Below, piece after piece: positions 1,990-8,020 of a DNA stretch of 64,000 nt. Each line of letters opens with the position of its first letter. Within the stretch, counting starts at the first letter, position 1. Below the pieces are notes generated by a model. It was not told the DNA's origin, did not search any database, and worked only from the letters and a program-made list of their open reading frames with translations. A program made the position numbers and the translations under genes. Source of the DNA: a virus; the IMG/VR virus record IMGVR_UViG_3300045988_105168, positions 1 to 64,000 of that record, one strand, 5' to 3'.

Positions 1990-2670
1990 ATGAAACCAAG
2001 GTTGACTATTCTAATTACTTCTTATAATAAAGAGAAGTATATATCTTACGTAATTAATATGTTAATAGCACAAAATTGTGAAGATATAGTTGTTCATATT
2101 ATCGATGATGGCTCAACAGATAATAGTTTAAATATTATCAATGAGTTAATTAGTGATGTAGATAACTTTCATTTACATCATTGGGATAAAAATAAAGGCA
2201 CTGGTAAAACCAGAAATTATGCTTTAGATTTAGTCAAAACTAATTATTTTATTTTTATAGATGCTGATGATATGATAACTGAAAATTACGTTACTAAGAT
2301 TTTAGAATATATTACAGAAGACCCAACTGCGGATATTCATTATTTTAGAACCAGAATATACCCTTTAGGTGAAACGGCTTGTTATGATTTTTCTTTGTGG
2401 GATAAAGTAATAAGCAAAGATTTTTTAGACAAACATAATATTAGATTTAAAGACTCGTTAAATAATATGGAAGATTATAATTTAAGAAGAAAAATCGAGA
2501 AAGTTGATTTTATAGAAGTTAATCATCCAGAGGTGCTGTATATTTATAATCTTTTAGCAGAAGGAACGGTCACACATCAAGAACAAATCTGGTATAATCA
2601 TAATTTAGATGGTATTAGAGCTGAATGTGACCCAAACACTATTGCTATATATAATGATACGGAGGATTAA
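1990..2670 (+). CDS. family-2 (GT-A) glycosyltransferase
   Basis: ILITSYNKEKY...HIIDDGSTDNS and the DxD-type motif IFIDADDM; GGAGG SD. Confidence 0.75.
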   Translation: MKPRLTILITSYNKEKYISYVINMLIAQNCEDIVVHIIDDGSTDNSLNIINELISDVDNFHLHHWDKNKGTGKTRNYALDLVKTNYFIFIDADDMITENYVTKILEYITEDPTADIHYFRTRIYPLGETACYDFSLWDKVISKDFLDKHNIRFKDSLNNMEDYNLRRKIEKVDFIEVNHPEVLYIYNLLAEGTVTHQEQIWYNHNLDGIRAECDPNTIAIYNDTED

Positions 2671-2671
2671 A

Positions 2672-3385
2672 ATGGATGTTATACTTACTACGAAGTGCAA
2701 TTTAAAATGTAGCGAATGTTGTTATTTATTTAATAAATACGAGCACGGCGAAGATTTAGATGCTGATGTTATAATTAGCAATATGGAAAAGATAAAAACC
2801 ATTATCATACAACATCAATTATTATCTATTATTGGTGGAGAAACGTTTTTATATCCCAACTTAGTTAAAATTGTAAAATATGTCAACACTATTCCTAATA
2901 TTAAATGCACAATTTTCACAAATGGAACTATCTATCCTAGTTATATCGAAGAATTGTGTCGCACTATGAATAAAAACTTTAATATTATGATTGGTGGATA
3001 TGGTAATCCAGAAGTTATAAAAAAATTGGAAGACATTTTTACTAAGTATAATGTTAATTATGCTATTCGTCCAGACGATGCTGAATGGATAAACCACGGA
3101 GAATTCATTGACCACCAAGAAGAAAAAACTCATTTCTGTGAATTTAGATATTTAACACTAATGAAAAATAGGGTATATGCTTGTGGAAGATTTGCTCAAG
3201 CGGTTAATCTGGGCTTAATAGATATTAAAGAATTAACTGAAGACGAATATGTTGATTTAGATGATGAATTTTTATTAGAGAAACTTGCAATGATGACAGA
3301 AGAGTCTTTCTATAAATTCACTTCTACTTGCAAATATTGTCTAAGAGGTTCTAAAAAAGGTTATGGAATTAACCAAGGTATATAA
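2672..3385 (+). CDS. small radical-SAM enzyme
   Basis: N-terminal CNLKCSEC (CxxxCxxC) cluster motif and extra C-terminal cysteines (CKYC). I moved the start to ATG 2672 behind GGAGG; the track ORF from 2609 overlaps the upstream gene. Confidence 0.7.
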   Translation: MDVILTTKCNLKCSECCYLFNKYEHGEDLDADVIISNMEKIKTIIIQHQLLSIIGGETFLYPNLVKIVKYVNTIPNIKCTIFTNGTIYPSYIEELCRTMNKNFNIMIGGYGNPEVIKKLEDIFTKYNVNYAIRPDDAEWINHGEFIDHQEEKTHFCEFRYLTLMKNRVYACGRFAQAVNLGLIDIKELTEDEYVDLDDEFLLEKLAMMTEESFYKFTSTCKYCLRGSKKGYGINQGI

Positions 3386-3589
3386 TATACACCCCTCGTA
3401 TTTAATTTACACTAAAGAAGGGCTTATGAGAATAGGAATTGTTTTACAAAGGTGTGTAATCGTTAAAACAAGTAAAGGTCGGTAGGATAAAAATACATAA
3501 AAGAAGTGCCTATTCAGAATTATTATTTAGGTGGCTCGTCATTGAAGAGGCGATAAGCAGCTGGTTTAATTCCAGTAGTCCACATTTTT

Positions 3590-3663
3590 GCAGATATAGT
3601 TTAAAGGTAGAACTTCAGCCTTCCAAGCTGACCGTGTCGGTTCGAGTCCGTCTATCTGCTCCA
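3590..3663 (+). tRNA. tRNA-Gly (anticodon TCC)
   Basis: Acceptor GCAGATA/TATCTGC, anticodon loop CT-TCC-AA, T-loop TTCGAGT, encoded CCA. Confidence 0.85.
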
Positions 3664-3668
3664 TTTTT

Positions 3669-3753
3669 GCATCCGTATTCTGTTAAGGACACAGGGCAGT
3701 CTGTAAAACTGTTGCCGCTGGCTGGCTAGGTTCGATACCTAGAGGGTGCACCA
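3669..3753 (+). tRNA. tRNA-Tyr (anticodon GTA)
   Basis: Acceptor GCATCCG/AGGGTGC (one mismatch), anticodon loop CT-GTA-AA, long variable arm as in bacterial tRNA-Tyr, T-arm CTAGG-TTCGATA-CCTAG, encoded CCA. Confidence 0.75.
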
Positions 3754-3758
3754 TATAT

Positions 3759-3846
3759 GTCGGGTAAAGAGAACATTGAAAAGCGTGAAAGCTAGTGAGT
3801 AGCGTGAAGTAGAAACGGGAAGACGTCTATATCCCACCTGGCACCA
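3759..3846 (+). ncRNA. tRNA-like element with a non-canonical interior, ending in ACCA
   Basis: GTCGGGT/ACCTGGC gives a 7-bp acceptor-like pairing (2 G.U) followed by A-CCA. The T-position arm is GGGA-(11 nt)-TCCC, which is not canonical. Preceded by the recurrent TATATGT motif. Confidence 0.25.
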
Positions 3847-3849
3847 TTT

Positions 3850-3926
3850 GCAGGATTAGCTCAGTTGGTTAGAGCACCTGCCTTACAAGCAGGGGGTCTG
3901 CGGTTCGAGTCCGTAATCCTGCACCA
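3850..3926 (+). tRNA. tRNA-Val (anticodon TAC)
   Basis: Acceptor GCAGGAT/ATCCTGC, anticodon loop CT-TAC-AA, T-loop TTCGAGT, encoded CCA. Confidence 0.9.
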
Positions 3927-3929
3927 TTT

Positions 3930-4088
3930 CGGAGAATATTCACGTAATATCTAGCGTGACCCTGGAGGGCAGGGTGTGGGTAATACGACAACTCGTCTTG
4001 TATTATTGGATTATATAATATAGTTACATATAAGAGAGGAAACGTGGGAATAACCACCTTATTGGTGCAAATCCAATTTCTCCGACCA
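3930..4088 (+). ncRNA. 159-nt tRNA-like element (acceptor, D-like arm, T-arm, CCA) with a large insert
   Basis: CGGAGAA/TTCTCCG acceptor plus A-CCA, T-arm ATTGG-TGCAAAT-CCAAT, D-like helix TCACG/CGTGA. There is no 7-nt anticodon loop; about 100 nt of extra structured sequence sits in its place. Confidence 0.35.
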
Positions 4089-4093
4089 TTAAT

Positions 4094-4180
4094 GCCTAGT
4101 TGTGATAATTGGTAGTCGGGCGGTCTTGAAAACCGTTGGTCGGAAACGGCTTGGGGGTTCGAGTCCCTCACTAGGCGCCA
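4094..4180 (+). tRNA. tRNA-Ser (anticodon TGA)
   Basis: Acceptor GCCTAGT/ACTAGGC, anticodon loop CT-TGA-AA, long variable arm, encoded CCA. Confidence 0.9.
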
Positions 4181-4188
4181 TTAAATTT

Positions 4189-4555
4189 GGGGTTGTCTTG
4201 GTTTCGACAGGAATGTACGAGATATGAACTACGAGTCGGAGGAACACGTCACGAACACAAAACAATAACTGGAAACAGAATTTTAAATACACTTAGAAAC
4301 TTATTTACTAATAAGGTGGCTTTAGCCTAGTGTTGCTGATTATAATTTTGTCTATTGGTTATAATTGGTATCATATAAATAGACTGGTTGTTACTTCCAC
4401 CTAAAGTGCTAACAATGAGATTTATTTAGGTTATTTCATTTAGATTTTTGCTTATTTTAAATAAATTGAAATAACATTGTAAAAATAAGATACGCTCGTA
4501 AAAGTTTGTAGGTAGTTATTTTTGGACAGGGGTTCGAGTCCCCTCAGCTCCACCA
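4189..4555 (+). ncRNA. ssrA: tmRNA (transfer-messenger RNA)
   Basis: 5' GGGGTTGTCTTGGTTTCGACAGG and 3' GGACAGGGGTTCGAGTCCCCTCAGCTCCACCA form the tRNA-Ala-like domain (G3:U70). The internal tag frame ends ...AAT AAG GTG GCT TTA GCC TAG (NKVALA-stop, stop at 4328-4330). Confidence 0.85.
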
Positions 4556-4573
4556 ATATTAGGAGAATTAATT

Positions 4574-4744
4574 ATGATTACACATATGTACTATGGCGAG
4601 CCTTGTAAAGAAATCAAACTAGAATATCATTATTATAGAAAAGCCGCTTGTTGTGATAATTGCATCAAGCGTTTTATTTTTAGAAGGCTTGCAAAATATT
4701 ATGAGAAAAAATATGATAAAAAATTCTTGACAAACAAGAGATAA
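4574..4744 (+). CDS. small Cys-rich protein (56 aa, below the ORF-track cutoff)
   Basis: TAGGAGA SD plus ATG. Translation by eye: MITHMYYGEPCKEIKLEYHYYRKAACCDNCIKRF...TNKR-stop. Confidence 0.4.
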   Translation: MITHMYYGEPCKEIKLEYHYYRKAACCDNCIKRFIFRRLAKYYEKKYDKKFLTNKR

Positions 4745-4755
4745 TGTGGTATTAT
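4727..4755 (+). promoter_or_regulatory. sigma70-type promoter TTGACA-17 nt-TATTAT
   Basis: TTGACA at 4727-4732, a 17-nt spacer, TATTAT at 4750-4755 with TG two nt upstream. Confidence 0.6.
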
Positions 4756-4761
4756 ATATTT

Positions 4762-5170
4762 GACAGTAAAGATTGGAGACATAAAGGGTTCCTATATAAA
4801 TGAATGATTTGGTAAATGGGTTTAATATTACTCTTCGTCTTTAAAATTTAATGTAGACACAAAGGCTTCCTTTGATTAACAAAAAGCGCTACAAATTAGT
4901 CGGGCGCCTCCCGACACCCGTTAGTCTTCGTCTACATTGACTGTAAATATTATTAGGGCATAAAGGGTTCCTTTCAAGCGCATTGTAAGCCGTGTGTCGT
5001 TGGTTCGAGTCCAACACCGCCAGTTGGCGGTTAGCTCAGCTGGGTAGAGCAGCGAGAGTACTCTTCGCCCTTAATTATGTATATTTTGGTGTCATAGCGA
5101 GTTCCTATTCCGTGGGTATCCACACCGAAATCAGGATTTGGCTTGAATTACTCGCCGACACATTAATAAA
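4762..5170 (+). ncRNA. structured ncRNA or long leader of the 682-aa gene
   Basis: No credible ORF and locally GC-enriched. 9-bp helix AATGTAGAC (4850-4858)/GTCTACATT (4930-4938) encloses two hairpins. 13-nt direct repeat ATAAAGGGTTCCT at 4781 and 4960. Contains the permuted tRNA mimic. Confidence 0.5.
4999..5068 (+). ncRNA. circularly permuted, capped tRNA-like domain
   Basis: In order: T-arm GTTGG-TTCGAGT-CCAAC; acceptor-like helix ACCGCC/GGCGGT closed by an AGTT loop; TA; D-arm GCTC-AGCTGGGTA-GAGC; A; then the arm GCGAG-AGTACTC-TTCGC. Confidence 0.55.
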
Positions 5171-5178
5171 AAAGGAGA

Positions 5179-7227
5179 ATGAAAGAAATGGAAAAAGAGG
5201 TTTTAAGATTATTTAAAGGTTTTTTAGGAGAAAAATCTAACGCAGTTAATGAAAAAGGATTAAAATATGGCTTATTAATTCCTTCAACTGCCAATGAGGC
5301 TGTTGTGGAAGAAGCAATTAAATTGTATGGTAAAGATGGTGAAAAGTGGAACCAAACATTTCATAAAGATTTTGAAATTGTCCGTAACGCACCTATCGAA
5401 GATTTAATCGCTCAACAATTAATACACTACATTACAACTTATGGTTTTGAGTCTTTAGGTATGTACGATGCTGATTTAGTATATATACCAAAAGAAAAAT
5501 TAGAAATACCAGAATTAAACGTTGATAACATTGAATTAATTAGTATTAAACCATTAACACCAACAGAATTAACTGATAAATTAATGACGTTATTAACAAG
5601 CGGTATTGCTTTGTCAGAACAATCAGTAAAAGATATTATGATTTTATCCGAATTTATTGATAAAAATAGATTTGATGAAATTAATAATAGAGAAATTAAA
5701 ACTGCATTGTATGATAAATATAATATTATGCCAAGAAATCCAGAAGAGTTTTTAAGATATTTATTATTTAAAACTACAAATAGTACTTTAAAAATACAAA
5801 ACGTTCCTACTATTAACAGTATTAAAAACTGCAACAAAAATTTAGCACTAAAAATGTTAAAGTCTTATGTAGAAAATACACCAAATGGTTATAATAAATT
5901 ATCTTCAATATTCCTAAGAAATAAAAATCTATTTCTTGCATTTAAAATAAAAAAAGACGAATGTGCAAATGAAAAAGAAACTATTAATCGCATTGAAATG
6001 AATGCCTTAATAAATAAATTAAGAAAAATGGCTGTTAAAAATCATAAGCCATTAAATAAAAATGTTTTAGATTGTTTGACTGACGAAACTGTGGATGTTG
6101 ATTTAGTAGAATTGCCAACTATGTTAGATAATGTTACTATTTTTAGAGAAATAAGAATATTAAATGGTATCTTATATAGATTAAATGGTAATGATAATAT
6201 AGTTTATAAAATTAGAAACGGTAGGTCTTATGTTAAAACACTAGAACCTAAAACAAAAGAATATATTATTAGATTAGAAGGTATAGCAGAAGTTGTTAAA
6301 AAACATCTTGTAAATAGATTATCTGCTAAAGTAAAAGGCAAAACAATATTTATTCCAAAAAACGTTACATACGCAGCGCCAACAACTGAAAAACAATTTA
6401 CTGGTAATATTCCAGATGGCTCTTATTTAGAAGTGCCAAGAGATTGTAATTTAGTATATGGTGTGTATTGGAAGAATATTGAAGGTGAAATGCCAAAGCA
6501 TAGATTTTACGGAGAAGAAAATTCTAATGGTCAAGAACGTGTTGATTTAGACTTAAAACAAATGAACAAGAGCGAAGTATTTGGTTGGGATGCCTCATAT
6601 AGAAGTGCTACATCTGATATATTGTTTAGTGGCGATATGACAGACGCGCAATTACCAAATGGCGCTTCAGAATTATTCTATGTTGGTCAAAATTATGGTC
6701 ACGGAGCATTTTTGATAACATTAAATATGTTTACAAATAATAGCAAAGATGTGCCATTTGAATTTGTTATTGCAAAAGCAACACATAGACCTCAAGACCG
6801 TACATATTATGCTTTAGACCCTAATAATATATTAGAGAAAGTTGATATGGAGATTAAAAATACCGACCGTCAAAAAGTCGTAGGATTTATTACTATCGGT
6901 GATAGCATTAGATTTTACTTTAATGATTTTAGTGCGGGAGGAGCTGTTGGTACACCAAGAGGATGTAGTACATCAGAGAGAAATGCAATTACAATGGGTG
7001 CGTTTGATTATTTACAAGCATATAGTAAAACACAATTAAAATTAAACGACTTGTTAGAGGATGCTGGTGCACTTGTAGTAGATAAACCAGTAATACACGT
7101 TCAAACAGAAATCCCTAGTGTTAATGGTGGTACAGAAACTACTCTTATTGCTAGAGATGTAGATATTAATTTATCTCCAAACTCTATATCAAAAGAAACA
7201 ATTATTGAATTATTAAGTGGAGAGTAA
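5179..7227 (+). CDS. large orphan protein: helical N-terminal half, beta-rich TerD-like C-terminal region
   Basis: 682-aa ORF. GGAG SD favours ATG 5188 as an alternative start. The C-terminal YGVYWKN...RVDLDLKQ...ILFSGDMTDAQLPNGASE pattern loosely resembles the TerD fold signature. No vWA MIDAS or catalytic motif recognised. Confidence 0.45.
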   Translation: MKEMEKEVLRLFKGFLGEKSNAVNEKGLKYGLLIPSTANEAVVEEAIKLYGKDGEKWNQTFHKDFEIVRNAPIEDLIAQQLIHYITTYGFESLGMYDADLVYIPKEKLEIPELNVDNIELISIKPLTPTELTDKLMTLLTSGIALSEQSVKDIMILSEFIDKNRFDEINNREIKTALYDKYNIMPRNPEEFLRYLLFKTTNSTLKIQNVPTINSIKNCNKNLALKMLKSYVENTPNGYNKLSSIFLRNKNLFLAFKIKKDECANEKETINRIEMNALINKLRKMAVKNHKPLNKNVLDCLTDETVDVDLVELPTMLDNVTIFREIRILNGILYRLNGNDNIVYKIRNGRSYVKTLEPKTKEYIIRLEGIAEVVKKHLVNRLSAKVKGKTIFIPKNVTYAAPTTEKQFTGNIPDGSYLEVPRDCNLVYGVYWKNIEGEMPKHRFYGEENSNGQERVDLDLKQMNKSEVFGWDASYRSATSDILFSGDMTDAQLPNGASELFYVGQNYGHGAFLITLNMFTNNSKDVPFEFVIAKATHRPQDRTYYALDPNNILEKVDMEIKNTDRQKVVGFITIGDSIRFYFNDFSAGGAVGTPRGCSTSERNAITMGAFDYLQAYSKTQLKLNDLLEDAGALVVDKPVIHVQTEIPSVNGGTETTLIARDVDINLSPNSISKETIIELLSGE

Positions 7228-7528: not shown

Positions 7529-7552
7529 TTTCGATTATAAGAGGTGTTTAGA

Positions 7553-8020
7553 ATGGACAAACCTATAATATTTTTAGATTTTGACGGTGTAGTTGAAACA
7601 ATTTATTGGGAAAAAGACATCGATGGTTCGTGGTCTTGGAATGTTCATAAGAGTGGACGTGAAGAACTTAATAATAAACAAGCTATAGGATGGCTTAATG
7701 AGTTATATTCTAAAACACCTTATGATATAGTTGTTTCTAGTACTTGGCGTATTGGTATGACTTTAGAACAATTACAAACACTTATTACAAAGTCAGGTTT
7801 TAACCCTGAAATAAAAGTAATAGGTATGACGCCAGTCTTATATCAACAACGAGGATTAGAAATACAAAAATGGATTGATGATAATAAATTTAAGAATAAG
7901 TTTATTATTATAGATGATGACTCTGATATGTGTCATTTATTACCATTATTAATTAGGTGCGATTGTCAATTAGGATTTACTATATATGACTATCAAAAAG
8001 CACTAAAAATGTTATCATAG
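7553..8020 (+). CDS. HAD-superfamily phosphatase-like protein
   Basis: IIFLDFDGVV (DxD nucleophile motif), VVSSTWR and IIIDDDSD motifs. Start ATG 7553 sits behind AAGAGG; the track gives GTG 7544. Confidence 0.6.
   Translation: MDKPIIFLDFDGVVETIYWEKDIDGSWSWNVHKSGREELNNKQAIGWLNELYSKTPYDIVVSSTWRIGMTLEQLQTLITKSGFNPEIKVIGMTPVLYQQRGLEIQKWIDDNKFKNKFIIIDDDSDMCHLLPLLIRCDCQLGFTIYDYQKALKMLS

What the first reader, a model, noticed from the sequence alone, without database searches (positions are those of the whole stretch)
4727..7227. Promoter-driven structured RNA with a circularly permuted, capped tRNA mimic, directly upstream of a 682-aa orphan protein
A near-consensus promoter (TTGACA-17-TATTAT, 4727-4755) is followed by about 400 nt without an ORF but with many helices. 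Inside, at 4999-5068, all four cloverleaf arms occur in permuted order. The order is T-arm GTTGG-TTCGAGT-CCAAC, a 6-bp acceptor-like helix ACCGCC/GGCGGT closed by an AGTT loop, TA, D-arm GCTC-AGCTGGGTA-GAGC, A, and an anticodon-like arm GCGAG-AGTACTC-TTCGC. The D- and T-loops keep the canonical elbow nucleotides. There is no free CCA end and the anticodon loop is non-canonical, so this is a tRNA-shaped module that cannot be charged. tRNA-mimicking modules are known in bacterial Y RNAs (YrlA), which partner with Ro60/Rsr. Circularly permuted tRNA genes are known in a red alga. Here the adjacent protein is not recognisably Ro60, so this may be a new RNA-protein pair or a decoy for tRNA-targeting host factors.
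Basis: partly seen in the sequence, partly recalled or inferred. Interest (0 to 1): 0.8.

Follow-up and report, generated by a model that had tools for sequence, protein, structure and literature searches.

The report
Phage Y-RNA-like array with non-Ro protein
A phage operon makes four small structured RNAs that share one conserved "handle", one of which carries a tRNA look-alike, plus a large uncharacterised protein that almost always travels with such RNAs. Together they look like a new counterpart of the Ro60/Y-RNA particle.

Summary
The described sequence is real. A near-consensus promoter (4727-4755) drives four tandem structured RNAs, followed by a 679-aa gene.

Each RNA closes with the same "handle": stem a, an AUA/C internal loop, a 6-bp stem b, then single-stranded UCCU. 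Unit 3 (4954-5072) carries a T arm, a loop-capped acceptor helix and a D arm. It matches Rfam YrlA at 50.8 bits, below the 69-bit threshold.

The protein is not an orphan: it has about 1,300 clusters at 50% identity. These include genes of cultured cyanophages S-CRM01 and S-CBWM1, and chromosomal copies.

About 95 homologous loci have enough flanking DNA to judge, and every one carries handle RNAs (189 on the gene strand, 3 opposite). Pair covariation is strong. No other protein neighbour is conserved.

The protein is not Ro60/TROVE by Pfam, hhalign or Foldseek. It is helical with a TerD-like β domain. Six loci carry the unpermuted form, a tRNA-like RNA with the handle in place of the anticodon loop.

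Best reading: a Y-RNA-like ribonucleoprotein with a new protein partner, linked to phage tRNA clusters. Binding and function are inferred, not shown.

The parts
4727..4755 (+). Sigma-70-type promoter TTGACA-17-TATTAT with a TG extended -10. The -10 ends about 19 nt before unit 1.
   Evidence: 11 of 12 matches. The same promoter type lies within 90 nt upstream of the first unit in 27 of 77 loci at 10 or more of 12 matches, against 0 of 77 control windows.
4775..4842 (+). Handle RNA unit 1. 5' strand GAGAC-AUA-AAGGGU-UCCU, 3' strand UA-CUCUU-C-G-UCU. Short AU-rich payload.
   Evidence: Strict unit finder. The MFE fold reproduces stem a, the 3x1 internal loop and stem b.
4853..4935 (+). Handle RNA unit 2. 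5' strand GUAGAC-ACA-AAGGCU-UCCU, 3' strand UA-GUCUU-C-G-UCUAC. The payload has the GC-rich hairpin GUCGGG-CGCCU-CCCGAC.
   Evidence: z = -3.8.
4954..5072 (+). Handle RNA unit 3, a YrlA-like tRNA mimic. Stem a is 4955-4959 with 5067-5071. The AUA bulge is 4960-4962, opposite C5066. Stem b is 4963-4968 with 5060-5065. UCCU is 4969-4972. A small hairpin GC-AUUGUAA-GC lies at 4980-4990. A 3-bp helix pairs 4991-4993 with 5052-5054.
   Evidence: Rfam YrlA at 50.8 bits, E=2e-10. RNAalifold and pair counts on 11 homologues. MFE fold.
4999..5015 (+). T arm of unit 3 (GUUGG-UUCGAGU-CCAAC).
   Evidence: 100% paired, with 3 of 5 pairs showing compensatory changes.
5016..5031 (+). Acceptor-like helix of unit 3, capped by an AGUU loop (ACCGCC/GGCGGU).
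   Evidence: 100% paired, and all 6 pairs show compensatory changes.
5034..5050 (+). D arm of unit 3 (GCUC-AGCUGGGUA-GAGC).
   Evidence: Invariant in all 11 homologues.
5088..5162 (+). Handle RNA unit 4. 5' strand GGUGUC-AUA-GCGAGU-UCCU, 3' strand UA-CUCGC-C-G-ACAC.
5188..7227 (+). Gene for the partner protein, 679 aa from ATG 5188. The mechanical ORF starts at 5179. GGAG lies at 5174-5177. Domains: an N-terminal all-helical region (about 1-385), a TerD-like beta domain (about 390-585), and a small C-terminal alpha/beta domain.
   Evidence: AF2 model with pLDDT 92 and pTM 0.90. Foldseek against BFVD finds TerD-like hits. Homologues start at MEKE.
7544..8020 (+). Neighbour gene with a HAD domain of the 'Swiss Army Knife' RNA-repair proteins (PF18143). 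This is context, not core.
   Evidence: E=3e-21. It is adjacent only in the close clade, 8 loci.
4189..4555 (+). Phage tmRNA directly upstream (context). The operon sits inside a cluster of 16 tRNA genes, all on the + strand.

Best explanation
The region is an operon for a Y-RNA-like ribonucleoprotein whose protein is not Ro60.

Proposed steps:
1. A strong promoter transcribes four tandem small RNAs and then the protein gene. This is inferred, since no intervening terminator is evident.
2. Each RNA is closed by base-pairing of its own ends into a conserved handle. The handle runs: stem a ending in an invariant C-G pair, a 3x1 internal loop (AUA opposite C), a 6-bp stem b ending in an invariant U-A pair, then single-stranded UCCU.
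3. The handle is the proposed docking site for the co-encoded 679-aa protein (helical plus TerD-like). This is inferred from strict co-inheritance.
4. The part beyond the handle is a variable payload. In unit 3 it mimics the tRNA elbow and acceptor, as in YrlA. In relatives it can be a bare loop, a whole cloverleaf, or the same tRNA body opened at the acceptor end.

By analogy with Ro60/YrlA, the protein would use the payloads to engage tRNA-recognising factors or damaged or misfolded tRNAs. This would give tRNA surveillance, protection or counter-defence during infection.

Shown: the RNAs, their structure and their genetic linkage to the protein. Inferred: binding, processing and function.
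For: RNA units are real and non-random:
- The window has four units against 0.13 expected.
- Across 80 sequences (79 loci plus the window) there are 189 units on the gene strand against 3 on the other strand.
- Nucleotides that the search did not impose are still invariant: A12, U22, and UA before stem b.
- On 90 distinct handles, 403 cells show double changes against 148 when shuffled. The covariation score is 0.718 against 0.227.

Linkage to the protein:
- Every homologous locus with flanking DNA has a unit. This covers phage loci, S-CRM01 and Phass-1, and chromosomal loci of Ktedonobacter, Desulfobacterales and Kapaibacterium.
- S-CBWM1 and L106 carry variant handles. In S-CBWM1 the otherwise invariant C-G pair has changed to U-A.
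- No protein neighbour is shared by more than 10 of 102 loci.

tRNA mimic. Unpermuted form.

Context:
- tRNA clusters: 316 tRNAs, all on the gene strand.
- A tmRNA lies directly upstream.
- A HAD_SAK_2 RNA-repair domain gene lies downstream.

Precedent: the Ro60 gene of Thermus phage phiLo has two Y-like RNA genes upstream. The protein binds them and forms a complex with host PNPase (PMC12135203). YrlA RNAs lie beside Ro60 in 254 bacteria and 22 phages (PMC4201824).
Against: - There is no direct evidence of transcription, processing or binding.
- The protein has no recognisable RNA-binding domain.
- In the reverse test, 24 of 54 verified units had no family protein within the fetched stretch. 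Two of these contigs do encode it elsewhere.
- Only about a third of loci carry a tRNA-like payload, so a tRNA-related function may not be general.
- Association with tRNA clusters is frequent but not universal: 37 of 82 loci.
Confidence: 0.68

Rival explanations
1. Cis-acting leader. The handles are operators in the mRNA 5' UTR through which the protein autoregulates its own translation or stability, rather than genes for stable trans-acting RNAs.
For: Units sit on the gene strand, usually 55-420 nt upstream. Unit 4 ends only 11 nt before the GGAG. No clear terminator separates the array from the gene.
Against: - Arrays hold up to 6 units.
- Some units lie downstream of the gene or more than 1 kb away: L027, L033, L038, L039, L050, L064, L076, L081.
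- Some units sit alone in tRNA clusters kilobases from any family gene.
- Covarying tRNA-like payloads have no obvious role in an operator.

This reading is not exclusive with the RNP reading.
Confidence: 0.12
2. Hijack of host Ro60. The phage supplies YrlA-type RNAs that bind the host's Rsr, and the adjacent protein is functionally unrelated.
For: - The Rfam YrlA hit.
- The handle's 3' strand, UUCGCC, resembles the 3' strand of the Rsr-binding helix in the Rfam consensus and in the Gordonia phage Sixama YrlA.
- Phage Ro60 systems exist, and they also sit in tRNA clusters.
Against: - The Rsr-binding 5' motif GNCGAAN0-1G (PMC4201824) is replaced by GNC-AUA-RR in all units.
- The handle tracks this protein across phage and bacterial lineages with very different hosts.
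- No TROVE gene lies near any unit.
Confidence: 0.07
3. Processing signal. The handle is a cleavage or maturation site, and the protein is a dedicated RNA-processing or RNA-modifying enzyme for transcripts of phage tRNA clusters.
For: Units are dispersed inside dense tRNA clusters. The single-stranded UUCCU next to a helix is invariant. The neighbouring gene has a HAD RNA-repair domain.
Against: No nuclease, ligase or transferase fold or motif was found in a high-confidence model. Chromosomal copies sit next to no tRNA cluster. Ordinary tRNAs in the clusters lack the handle.
Confidence: 0.1
4. Decay debris of tandem tRNA genes, or a circularly permuted tRNA gene that is processed into a normal tRNA.
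For: The region lies inside a tRNA cluster, and the T and D arms are tRNA-like.
Against: The permuted order, capped acceptor and handle are conserved with compensatory changes down to about 29% protein identity. There is no anticodon arm, and no tRNA call.
Confidence: 0.01

Closest known systems
YrlA / bacterial Y RNAs with Ro60 (Rsr), Rfam RF02553 (Chen et al. 2014, PMC4201824)
   Same: - A small RNA closed by pairing of its own ends.
- T arm, loop-capped acceptor helix and D arm in the same order.
- The protein-binding module emerges where the anticodon arm would be.
- Encoded next to, and on the same strand as, the gene of a large protein with a helical domain and a putative metal-binding domain.
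- Occurs in phages, often inside tRNA clusters.
   Different: - The score is below Rfam's threshold (50.8 against 69 bits).
- The 5' Rsr motif GNCGAA is replaced by GNC-AUA-RRNRGU-UCCU.
- No TROVE gene lies within 64 kb.
- The partner protein is unrelated to Ro60 by sequence profile and by fold.
- Units form arrays of up to 6, and most lack any tRNA-like part.
Thermus phage phiLo Ro60 with Yrl1/Yrl2 (PMC12135203)
   Same: A phage locus with tandem Y-like RNA genes directly upstream of the protein gene. The proposed role is to redirect host RNA-metabolism enzymes.
   Different: phiLo has a canonical doughnut of HEAT repeats plus vWA, and a CGAA motif in its RNAs. Here neither is present. Entries of that release period (the phiLo entries are 9KOP and 9L5Y) fall within the searched PDB, which gave no significant match.
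TerD-domain proteins of the tellurite-resistance (Ter) system
   Same: The beta domain at about 390-585 matches predicted viral TerD-like proteins by fold. It aligns in register with the TerD motifs GWD, DLD and SGDxT..G..E.
   Different: - No Pfam TerD hit, and hhalign is not significant.
- Fused to a roughly 385-aa helical domain.
- No Ter-operon neighbours.
- Linked to an RNA, which is not known for TerD (my own knowledge).
Circularly permuted tRNA genes of Cyanidioschyzon merolae (my own knowledge)
   Same: The 3' part (T arm, acceptor 3' strand) precedes the 5' part (acceptor 5' strand, D arm).
   Different: Those genes are processed through a circular intermediate into normal, chargeable tRNAs with an anticodon. 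Here the acceptor is permanently capped by a 4-nt loop, and the anticodon loop is replaced by the handle.

Membership tests
YrlA (Rfam RF02553) | Covariance-model score at or above the curated gathering score (69 bits) | tested here: not met
   50.8 bits, E=2e-10, full-length match. Relatives score 36-39 bits. YrlA-model hits (unverified) next to annotated Ro-like genes in phages also score below threshold, at 23.7-46.8 bits.
YrlA (Rfam RF02553) | tRNA-like domain: T arm, loop-capped acceptor-like helix and D arm, with elbow nucleotides | tested here: met
   The T arm and capped helix covary, and the D arm is invariant.
YrlA (Rfam RF02553) | 5' Rsr-binding motif GNCGAAN0-1G (PMC4201824) | tested here: not met
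   All 163 distinct handles read GNC-A-N-A followed by stem b. The Ro-linked Sixama RNA has AUCGAAUUG.
YrlA (Rfam RF02553) | Encoded within about 4 kb of a TROVE/Ro60 gene, on the same strand | tested here: not met
   tblastn with seven Ro60/Ro-like proteins found nothing in the 64-kb window or in 82 family loci, and nothing in 120 motif loci.
Ro60 / TROVE (the protein) | TROVE (HEAT-repeat ring) domain plus a vWA domain with MIDAS | tested here: not met
   No Pfam hit for 60 members. hhalign of the family against the Ro60 alignment gives 0.8% probability. The profile finds nothing among PDB sequences.
Ro60 / TROVE (the protein) | Fold similarity to solved Ro60 structures | tested here: not met
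   Foldseek of the pLDDT-92 model against the PDB gives a best E of 0.04, with no Ro60 among the top 50. In BFVD a TROVE protein appears only at E=0.26.
TerD domain (PF02342) | Sequence-profile match to TerD | tested here: not met
   No Pfam hit at E up to 10 on the isolated domain. hhalign against a validated TerD gives 1.4% probability, although the alignment is in register.
TerD domain (PF02342) | TerD-like beta-sandwich fold | tested here: inconclusive
   BFVD hits to small proteins give E from 3e-5 to 2e-4 and target TM-scores of 0.43-0.61. One is named TerD-like, and the best full-length hit is named 'tellurium resistant like'. No solved TerD structure was among the top PDB hits.
tRNA (RF00005) | Cloverleaf with a free acceptor end and a 7-nt anticodon loop | tested here: not met
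   Neither ARAGORN nor Rfam calls a tRNA at 4954-5072. The acceptor is capped, and the proposed anticodon arm is unsupported.
Protein-binding handle RNA (proposed here) | Physical binding of the family protein to the handle | not testable with these tools
   Only genetic linkage and covariation are available.

The most novel reading that the evidence does not exclude
This is a previously undescribed, widespread ribonucleoprotein class in phages and bacteria. A roughly 650-aa helical plus TerD-like protein, unrelated to Ro60, binds a modular 'handle' RNA. The variable payloads of that RNA include both circular permutations of a tRNA body. The particle would act on the tRNA pool, for example in quality control, or in protection or decoying against tRNA-targeting defence nucleases. 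That would be a convergent analogue of Ro60/Y RNA, embedded in phage tRNA clusters.
Probability: 0.5. Interest if true: 0.85.

Novelty: new variant of a known kind. Interest (0 to 1): 0.75.

Why it matters
Y RNAs and their tRNA-mimicking bacterial relatives are known only as partners of Ro60. Here the same RNA design is coupled to a different conserved docking module and to an unrelated, uncharacterised protein family. The design is ends-paired, with a tRNA elbow and acceptor mimic and a protein site at the anticodon end.

The protein family has about 1,300 clusters at 50% identity. It is found in gut and aquatic phages and in bacterial chromosomes.

If the pair is a real RNP, three things follow:
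- It reveals a second, independent way of building tRNA-mimic RNPs.
- It gives a function to a common 'hypothetical protein' of phage tRNA clusters.
- It may explain part of how large phages manage or defend their tRNA supply.

The question is directly testable, because the cultured cyanophages S-CRM01 (g174) and S-CBWM1 (gp22) carry the system.

Tried and rejected
1. A covariance model built from 'mini' handles with an artificial GAAA linker could not bridge the variable payload. It found only unit 1, at E=0.07. I dropped it in favour of the explicit pairing search with strand and simulation controls.
2. Payloads as anticodon stem-loop mimics. MFE-based counts were 8 of 139 against about 1 when shuffled. 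Regex counts were 42 of 168 against 8, but about half are T loops. This is too weak to claim.
3. A third helix in fixed register after UCCU. Pairing is at random level except for A23-U31. Such a helix exists only in the unpermuted tRNA-like form.
4. The tRNA-with-intron reading of the unpermuted form. By eye, on the sequences, the residues flanking the handle do not restore a canonical anticodon loop.
5. TerD by sequence: no Pfam hit, and hhalign is not significant.
6. The first AF2 model, from 32 close sequences (pTM 0.56), gave no useful fold hits. The 60-sequence model was used instead.
7. PHROGs, NCBIfam, PADLOC and PDB sequence searches all found nothing.
8. Megablast against phage GenBank records found no match.
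9. A search for conserved protein neighbours found none beyond 10 of 102 loci.
11. Burroughs and Aravind 2016, and the Sim et al. 2020 review, are not held in the library.
Full report
**1. What is in the window**

The window looks like a phage genome.
- All on the + strand, it carries 16 tRNA genes and a tmRNA at 4189-4555.
- On the - strand it carries replication genes: a Pol III alpha subunit, a DnaB-primase fusion and NrdD.

The flagged stretch starts with TTGACA-17-TATTAT at 4727-4755. This matches 11 of 12 consensus positions and has a TG extended -10.

ARAGORN and Rfam's tRNA model call nothing there. A permissive Rfam scan of 4556-5250 gives one meaningful hit. It is YrlA (RF02553) at 4975-5076, full model length, 50.8 bits and E=2e-10. 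This is below the curated 69 bits.

**2. The region is an array of four units with a common closing module**

Reading homologous loci showed a repeated frame:

5'-[stem a]-C-A-N-A-[5 nt]-UUCCU ... U-A-[5 nt]-C-G-[stem a']-3'

I ran an explicit search for this frame, requiring at least 9 of 10 pairs in the two 5-nt stems.
- The window has exactly four units: 4775-4842, 4853-4935, 4954-5072 and 5088-5162.
- Nothing else turns up in 64 kb on either strand.
- First-order Markov simulations of the window give 0.13 hits per sequence, counting both strands.

MFE folding recovers stem a, the 3x1 internal loop and stem b on its own in three of the four units.

**3. The protein is not an orphan**

The ORF has 1731 relatives at E<=1e-3 in the word-indexed search. 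It has 1299 representative clusters at 50% identity, 719 of them at E<=1e-30.

Homologues start at MEKE. GGAG at 5174-5177 is 10 nt from ATG 5188. The likely product is therefore 679 aa.

Relatives occur in several cultured or named phages, where they are annotated as hypothetical:
- Synechococcus phage S-CRM01 (g174)
- Synechococcus phage S-CBWM1 (gp22)
- human-gut phage Phass-1

Relatives also occur in bacterial genome records, including large chromosomal contigs:
- Ktedonobacter racemifer DSM 44963 (2.7-Mb contig)
- a Desulfobacterales MAG (4.8-Mb contig)

There the neighbours are ordinary cellular genes: PAS histidine kinases, MatE and GNAT.

**4. RNA and protein are inherited together**

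In 79 loci plus the window (652 kb), the strict search finds 189 units on the gene strand and 3 on the opposite strand.
- Every locus with upstream DNA has 1-6 units. They usually lie within a few hundred nt upstream.
- In a few loci they lie just downstream, or more than 1 kb away.
- The two apparent exceptions carry variant handles. In S-CBWM1 the otherwise invariant C-G pair has become U-A.

Clustering all flanking ORFs shows no protein family shared by more than 10 of 102 loci. The RNA is therefore the only conserved partner.

Nucleotides that the search did not impose are nearly invariant: A12, U22, and the UA before stem b. On 90 distinct handles:
- 86.5% of cells pair.
- 403 cells show changes on both sides, against 148 when shuffled.
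- The covariation score is 0.718, against 0.227 when shuffled and 0.13-0.19 when slid.

Because the stems were selected for pairing, the strand asymmetry and the simulations are the real significance test. The covariation then shows that the sequence is free to vary while the pairing is kept.

**5. Reverse test**

I scanned for a 15-base handle pattern in IMG/VR. They fall into three groups:
- 66 are bare motif matches without the 3' partner. By my estimate of the collection's size, roughly this many chance matches are expected for 15 specified bases.
- 30 are full units with the family gene in the same stretch. All 36 motifs are on the gene strand, mostly 55-420 nt upstream.
- 24 are full units without the family gene in the stretch, by both tblastn and HMM.

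Nearly all of the last group lie inside dense tRNA clusters, with up to 25 tRNAs in 13 kb. For two of them, the same contig encodes the protein elsewhere.

So the protein almost always comes with the RNA. The RNA also occurs dispersed in tRNA clusters.

**6. Unit 3 is a YrlA-type tRNA mimic, and the fourth arm is not real**

Eleven homologous units were aligned. RNAalifold returns the handle, a 5-bp T arm, a 6-bp capped acceptor-like helix and the D arm.

Pair counts:
- 95.8% of cells pair.
- 22 pairs have compensatory changes.
- The covariation score is 0.581, against 0.186 when shuffled and at most 0.127 when slid.
- All six acceptor pairs and three T-arm pairs covary.

Its 3' half is the handle's 3' strand.

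Upstream of the T arm there is weak support for two further elements:
- a 2-3-bp hairpin with a 7-nt NUNUUAA loop (4980-4990)
- a 3-bp helix (4991-4993 with 5052-5054), equivalent to YrlA's anticodon-stem remnant

**7. Both circular permutations exist**

Six loci encode a 111-113-nt RNA that Rfam scores as tRNA at 58-64 bits. Three are phage loci (L033, L048, L050) and three are chromosomal (L098, L099, L105).

This RNA has an open 7-bp acceptor stem, a D arm, an anticodon stem and a T arm. The anticodon loop is replaced by the handle, folded as a capped hairpin in the order 3' strand, small loop, 5' strand, UUCCU.

The window's unit 3 is open at the handle and capped at the acceptor. It is the circular permutation of that form.

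A third variant, L002 unit 5, places a complete non-permuted cloverleaf with a 6-nt 'anticodon' loop on the handle.

Only about a third of loci have any tRNA-like payload. Most units are 50-60-nt hairpins with an AU-rich apical loop.

**8. The protein is not Ro60**

- Pfam, PHROGs, NCBIfam, PADLOC and PDB sequence searches give nothing.
- I assembled a Ro60 alignment from human Ro60 and six phage Ro-like proteins. My recalled human sequence was validated by 356 phage hits, and the alignment is. hhalign against the family profile gives 0.8% probability.
- An AF2 model from 60 diverse members is confident, with pLDDT 92 and pTM 0.90.
- Foldseek finds no PDB match. The best E is 0.04, and no Ro60 structure appears among the hits listed.

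In BFVD the model matches:
- full-length viral proteins, including 'putative tellurium resistant like protein' (E=2e-19) and a Campylobacter virus IBB35 protein
- TerD-like small proteins over the beta domain

A validated TerD sequence aligns in register on the GWD, DLD and SGDxT..G..E motifs, but without statistical significance. No TROVE gene lies in the window, in 82 family loci or in 120 motif loci.

**9. Relation to the Ro60-binding site**

Ro-linked bacterial Y RNAs carry GNCGAAN0-1G on the 5' strand (PMC4201824). The YrlA-model match beside the Ro gene of Gordonia phage Sixama (46.8 bits, below threshold; not experimentally verified) reads AUCGAAUUG, paired with UUUUCGCUAAC.

The handle's 3' strand, ..UUCGCC, is similar. 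The 5' strand is different: GNC-AUA-RRNRGU-UCCU.

This is compatible with descent from a YrlA-like ancestor followed by a change of partner. It is equally compatible with convergence, and I cannot tell which.

**10. Context and likely function**

- A strong promoter precedes the first unit in 27 of 77 loci, against 0 of 77 control windows.
- Flanks hold 316 tRNA genes, all on the gene strand. Of 82 loci, 37 have at least one.
- The window's array directly follows a tmRNA. In Phass-1 the units directly precede one.
- The next gene after two tRNAs has the HAD domain of 'Swiss Army Knife' RNA-repair proteins. That adjacency is limited to the close clade.
- Known phage Ro60 genes occupy similar positions among tRNAs.
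- Phage phiLo Ro60, with its two upstream Y-like RNAs, assembles with host PNPase (PMC12135203).

By analogy, I infer an RNP in which the handle docks the protein and the payload engages tRNA-recognising machinery. The particle would serve tRNA surveillance, protection or counter-defence. None of the biochemical steps is shown.

**11. Literature**

Searches for YrlA or Y RNA in phages, for TerD with tRNA, and for Ro60 in phages found no description of this handle, or of a non-Ro partner for YrlA-like RNAs. Some key reviews are not held, so prior description cannot be excluded.

**12. Verdict**

It is wrong on the fourth arm and on 'orphan'.

The finding is best filed as a new variant of the Y-RNA/Ro60 kind of system. 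It has a new docking module and a new protein family. There is a fair chance that it is a distinct RNP class.

Noticed in passing
window 4189-4555: A phage-encoded tmRNA (121.8 bits; tag peptide ANNEIYLGYFI*) lies directly upstream of the array. In Phass-1 the handle units (L081 6297-6510) directly precede a tmRNA (6518-6956).
   Followed up: partly
window 7544-8020: A 158-aa gene with the HAD domain of 'Swiss Army Knife' RNA-repair proteins (PF18143, E=3e-21) lies two tRNAs downstream of the protein gene. The same adjacency is seen in 8 close relatives only.
   Followed up: yes
L099 2805-2917, L105 2810-2920, L098 about 2805-2915, L048, L050, L033: tRNA-like RNAs of 111-113 nt (Rfam tRNA 58-64 bits; ARAGORN calls none of the three chromosomal ones checked, L098, L099 and L105). 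They have a normal open acceptor stem and the handle as a capped hairpin in place of the anticodon loop. This is the unpermuted counterpart of the window's unit 3.
   Followed up: yes
L002 2693-2808 (also L003 896-1011): A handle unit whose payload is a complete, non-permuted cloverleaf with a 6-nt 'anticodon' loop (Rfam tRNA 49.5 bits; ARAGORN 'tRNA-???').
   Followed up: partly
L080 2785-2931 (S-CRM01 g173c): The annotated 'hypothetical protein' g173c lies on the opposite strand, on top of handle units 2741-2801 and 2809-2872. It is probably a spurious ORF call.
   Followed up: no
L100 3001-5837 (Ktedonobacter racemifer): The chromosomal homologue spans 2837 nt and is split over three overlapping reading frames (2914-3462, 3257-4306, 4248-5846). 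It may be a pseudogene, contain frameshifts, or carry an insertion.
   Followed up: no
L133, L136, L191, L150 and other motif loci: Handle units sit alone inside very dense phage tRNA clusters (up to 25 tRNAs in 13 kb), with no family protein in the fetched stretch. Some come from contigs of more than 400 kb.
   Followed up: partly
window 4574-4744: A 56-aa Cys-rich ORF (CKE...CCDNC) lies between the tmRNA and the array, and the promoter lies in its 3' end. Relatives have a 72-aa ORF at the same place (L002 1964-2182).
   Followed up: no
window 1990-3385: A family-2 glycosyltransferase and a radical-SAM protein are encoded inside the tRNA cluster on the tRNA strand.
   Followed up: no
window 4969-4972 and all units: The invariant single-stranded UUCCU is complementary to AGGAA and AGGAG, which are Shine-Dalgarno-like sequences. 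Whether it pairs with mRNAs or is purely a protein contact is unknown.
   Followed up: no
L082 5207-5383 (S-CBWM1): Two RNAs annotated 'tRNA-pseudo' lie just downstream of the family gene (Rfam tRNA 53.7 and 45.5 bits). I did not examine them for handle-like features.
   Followed up: no
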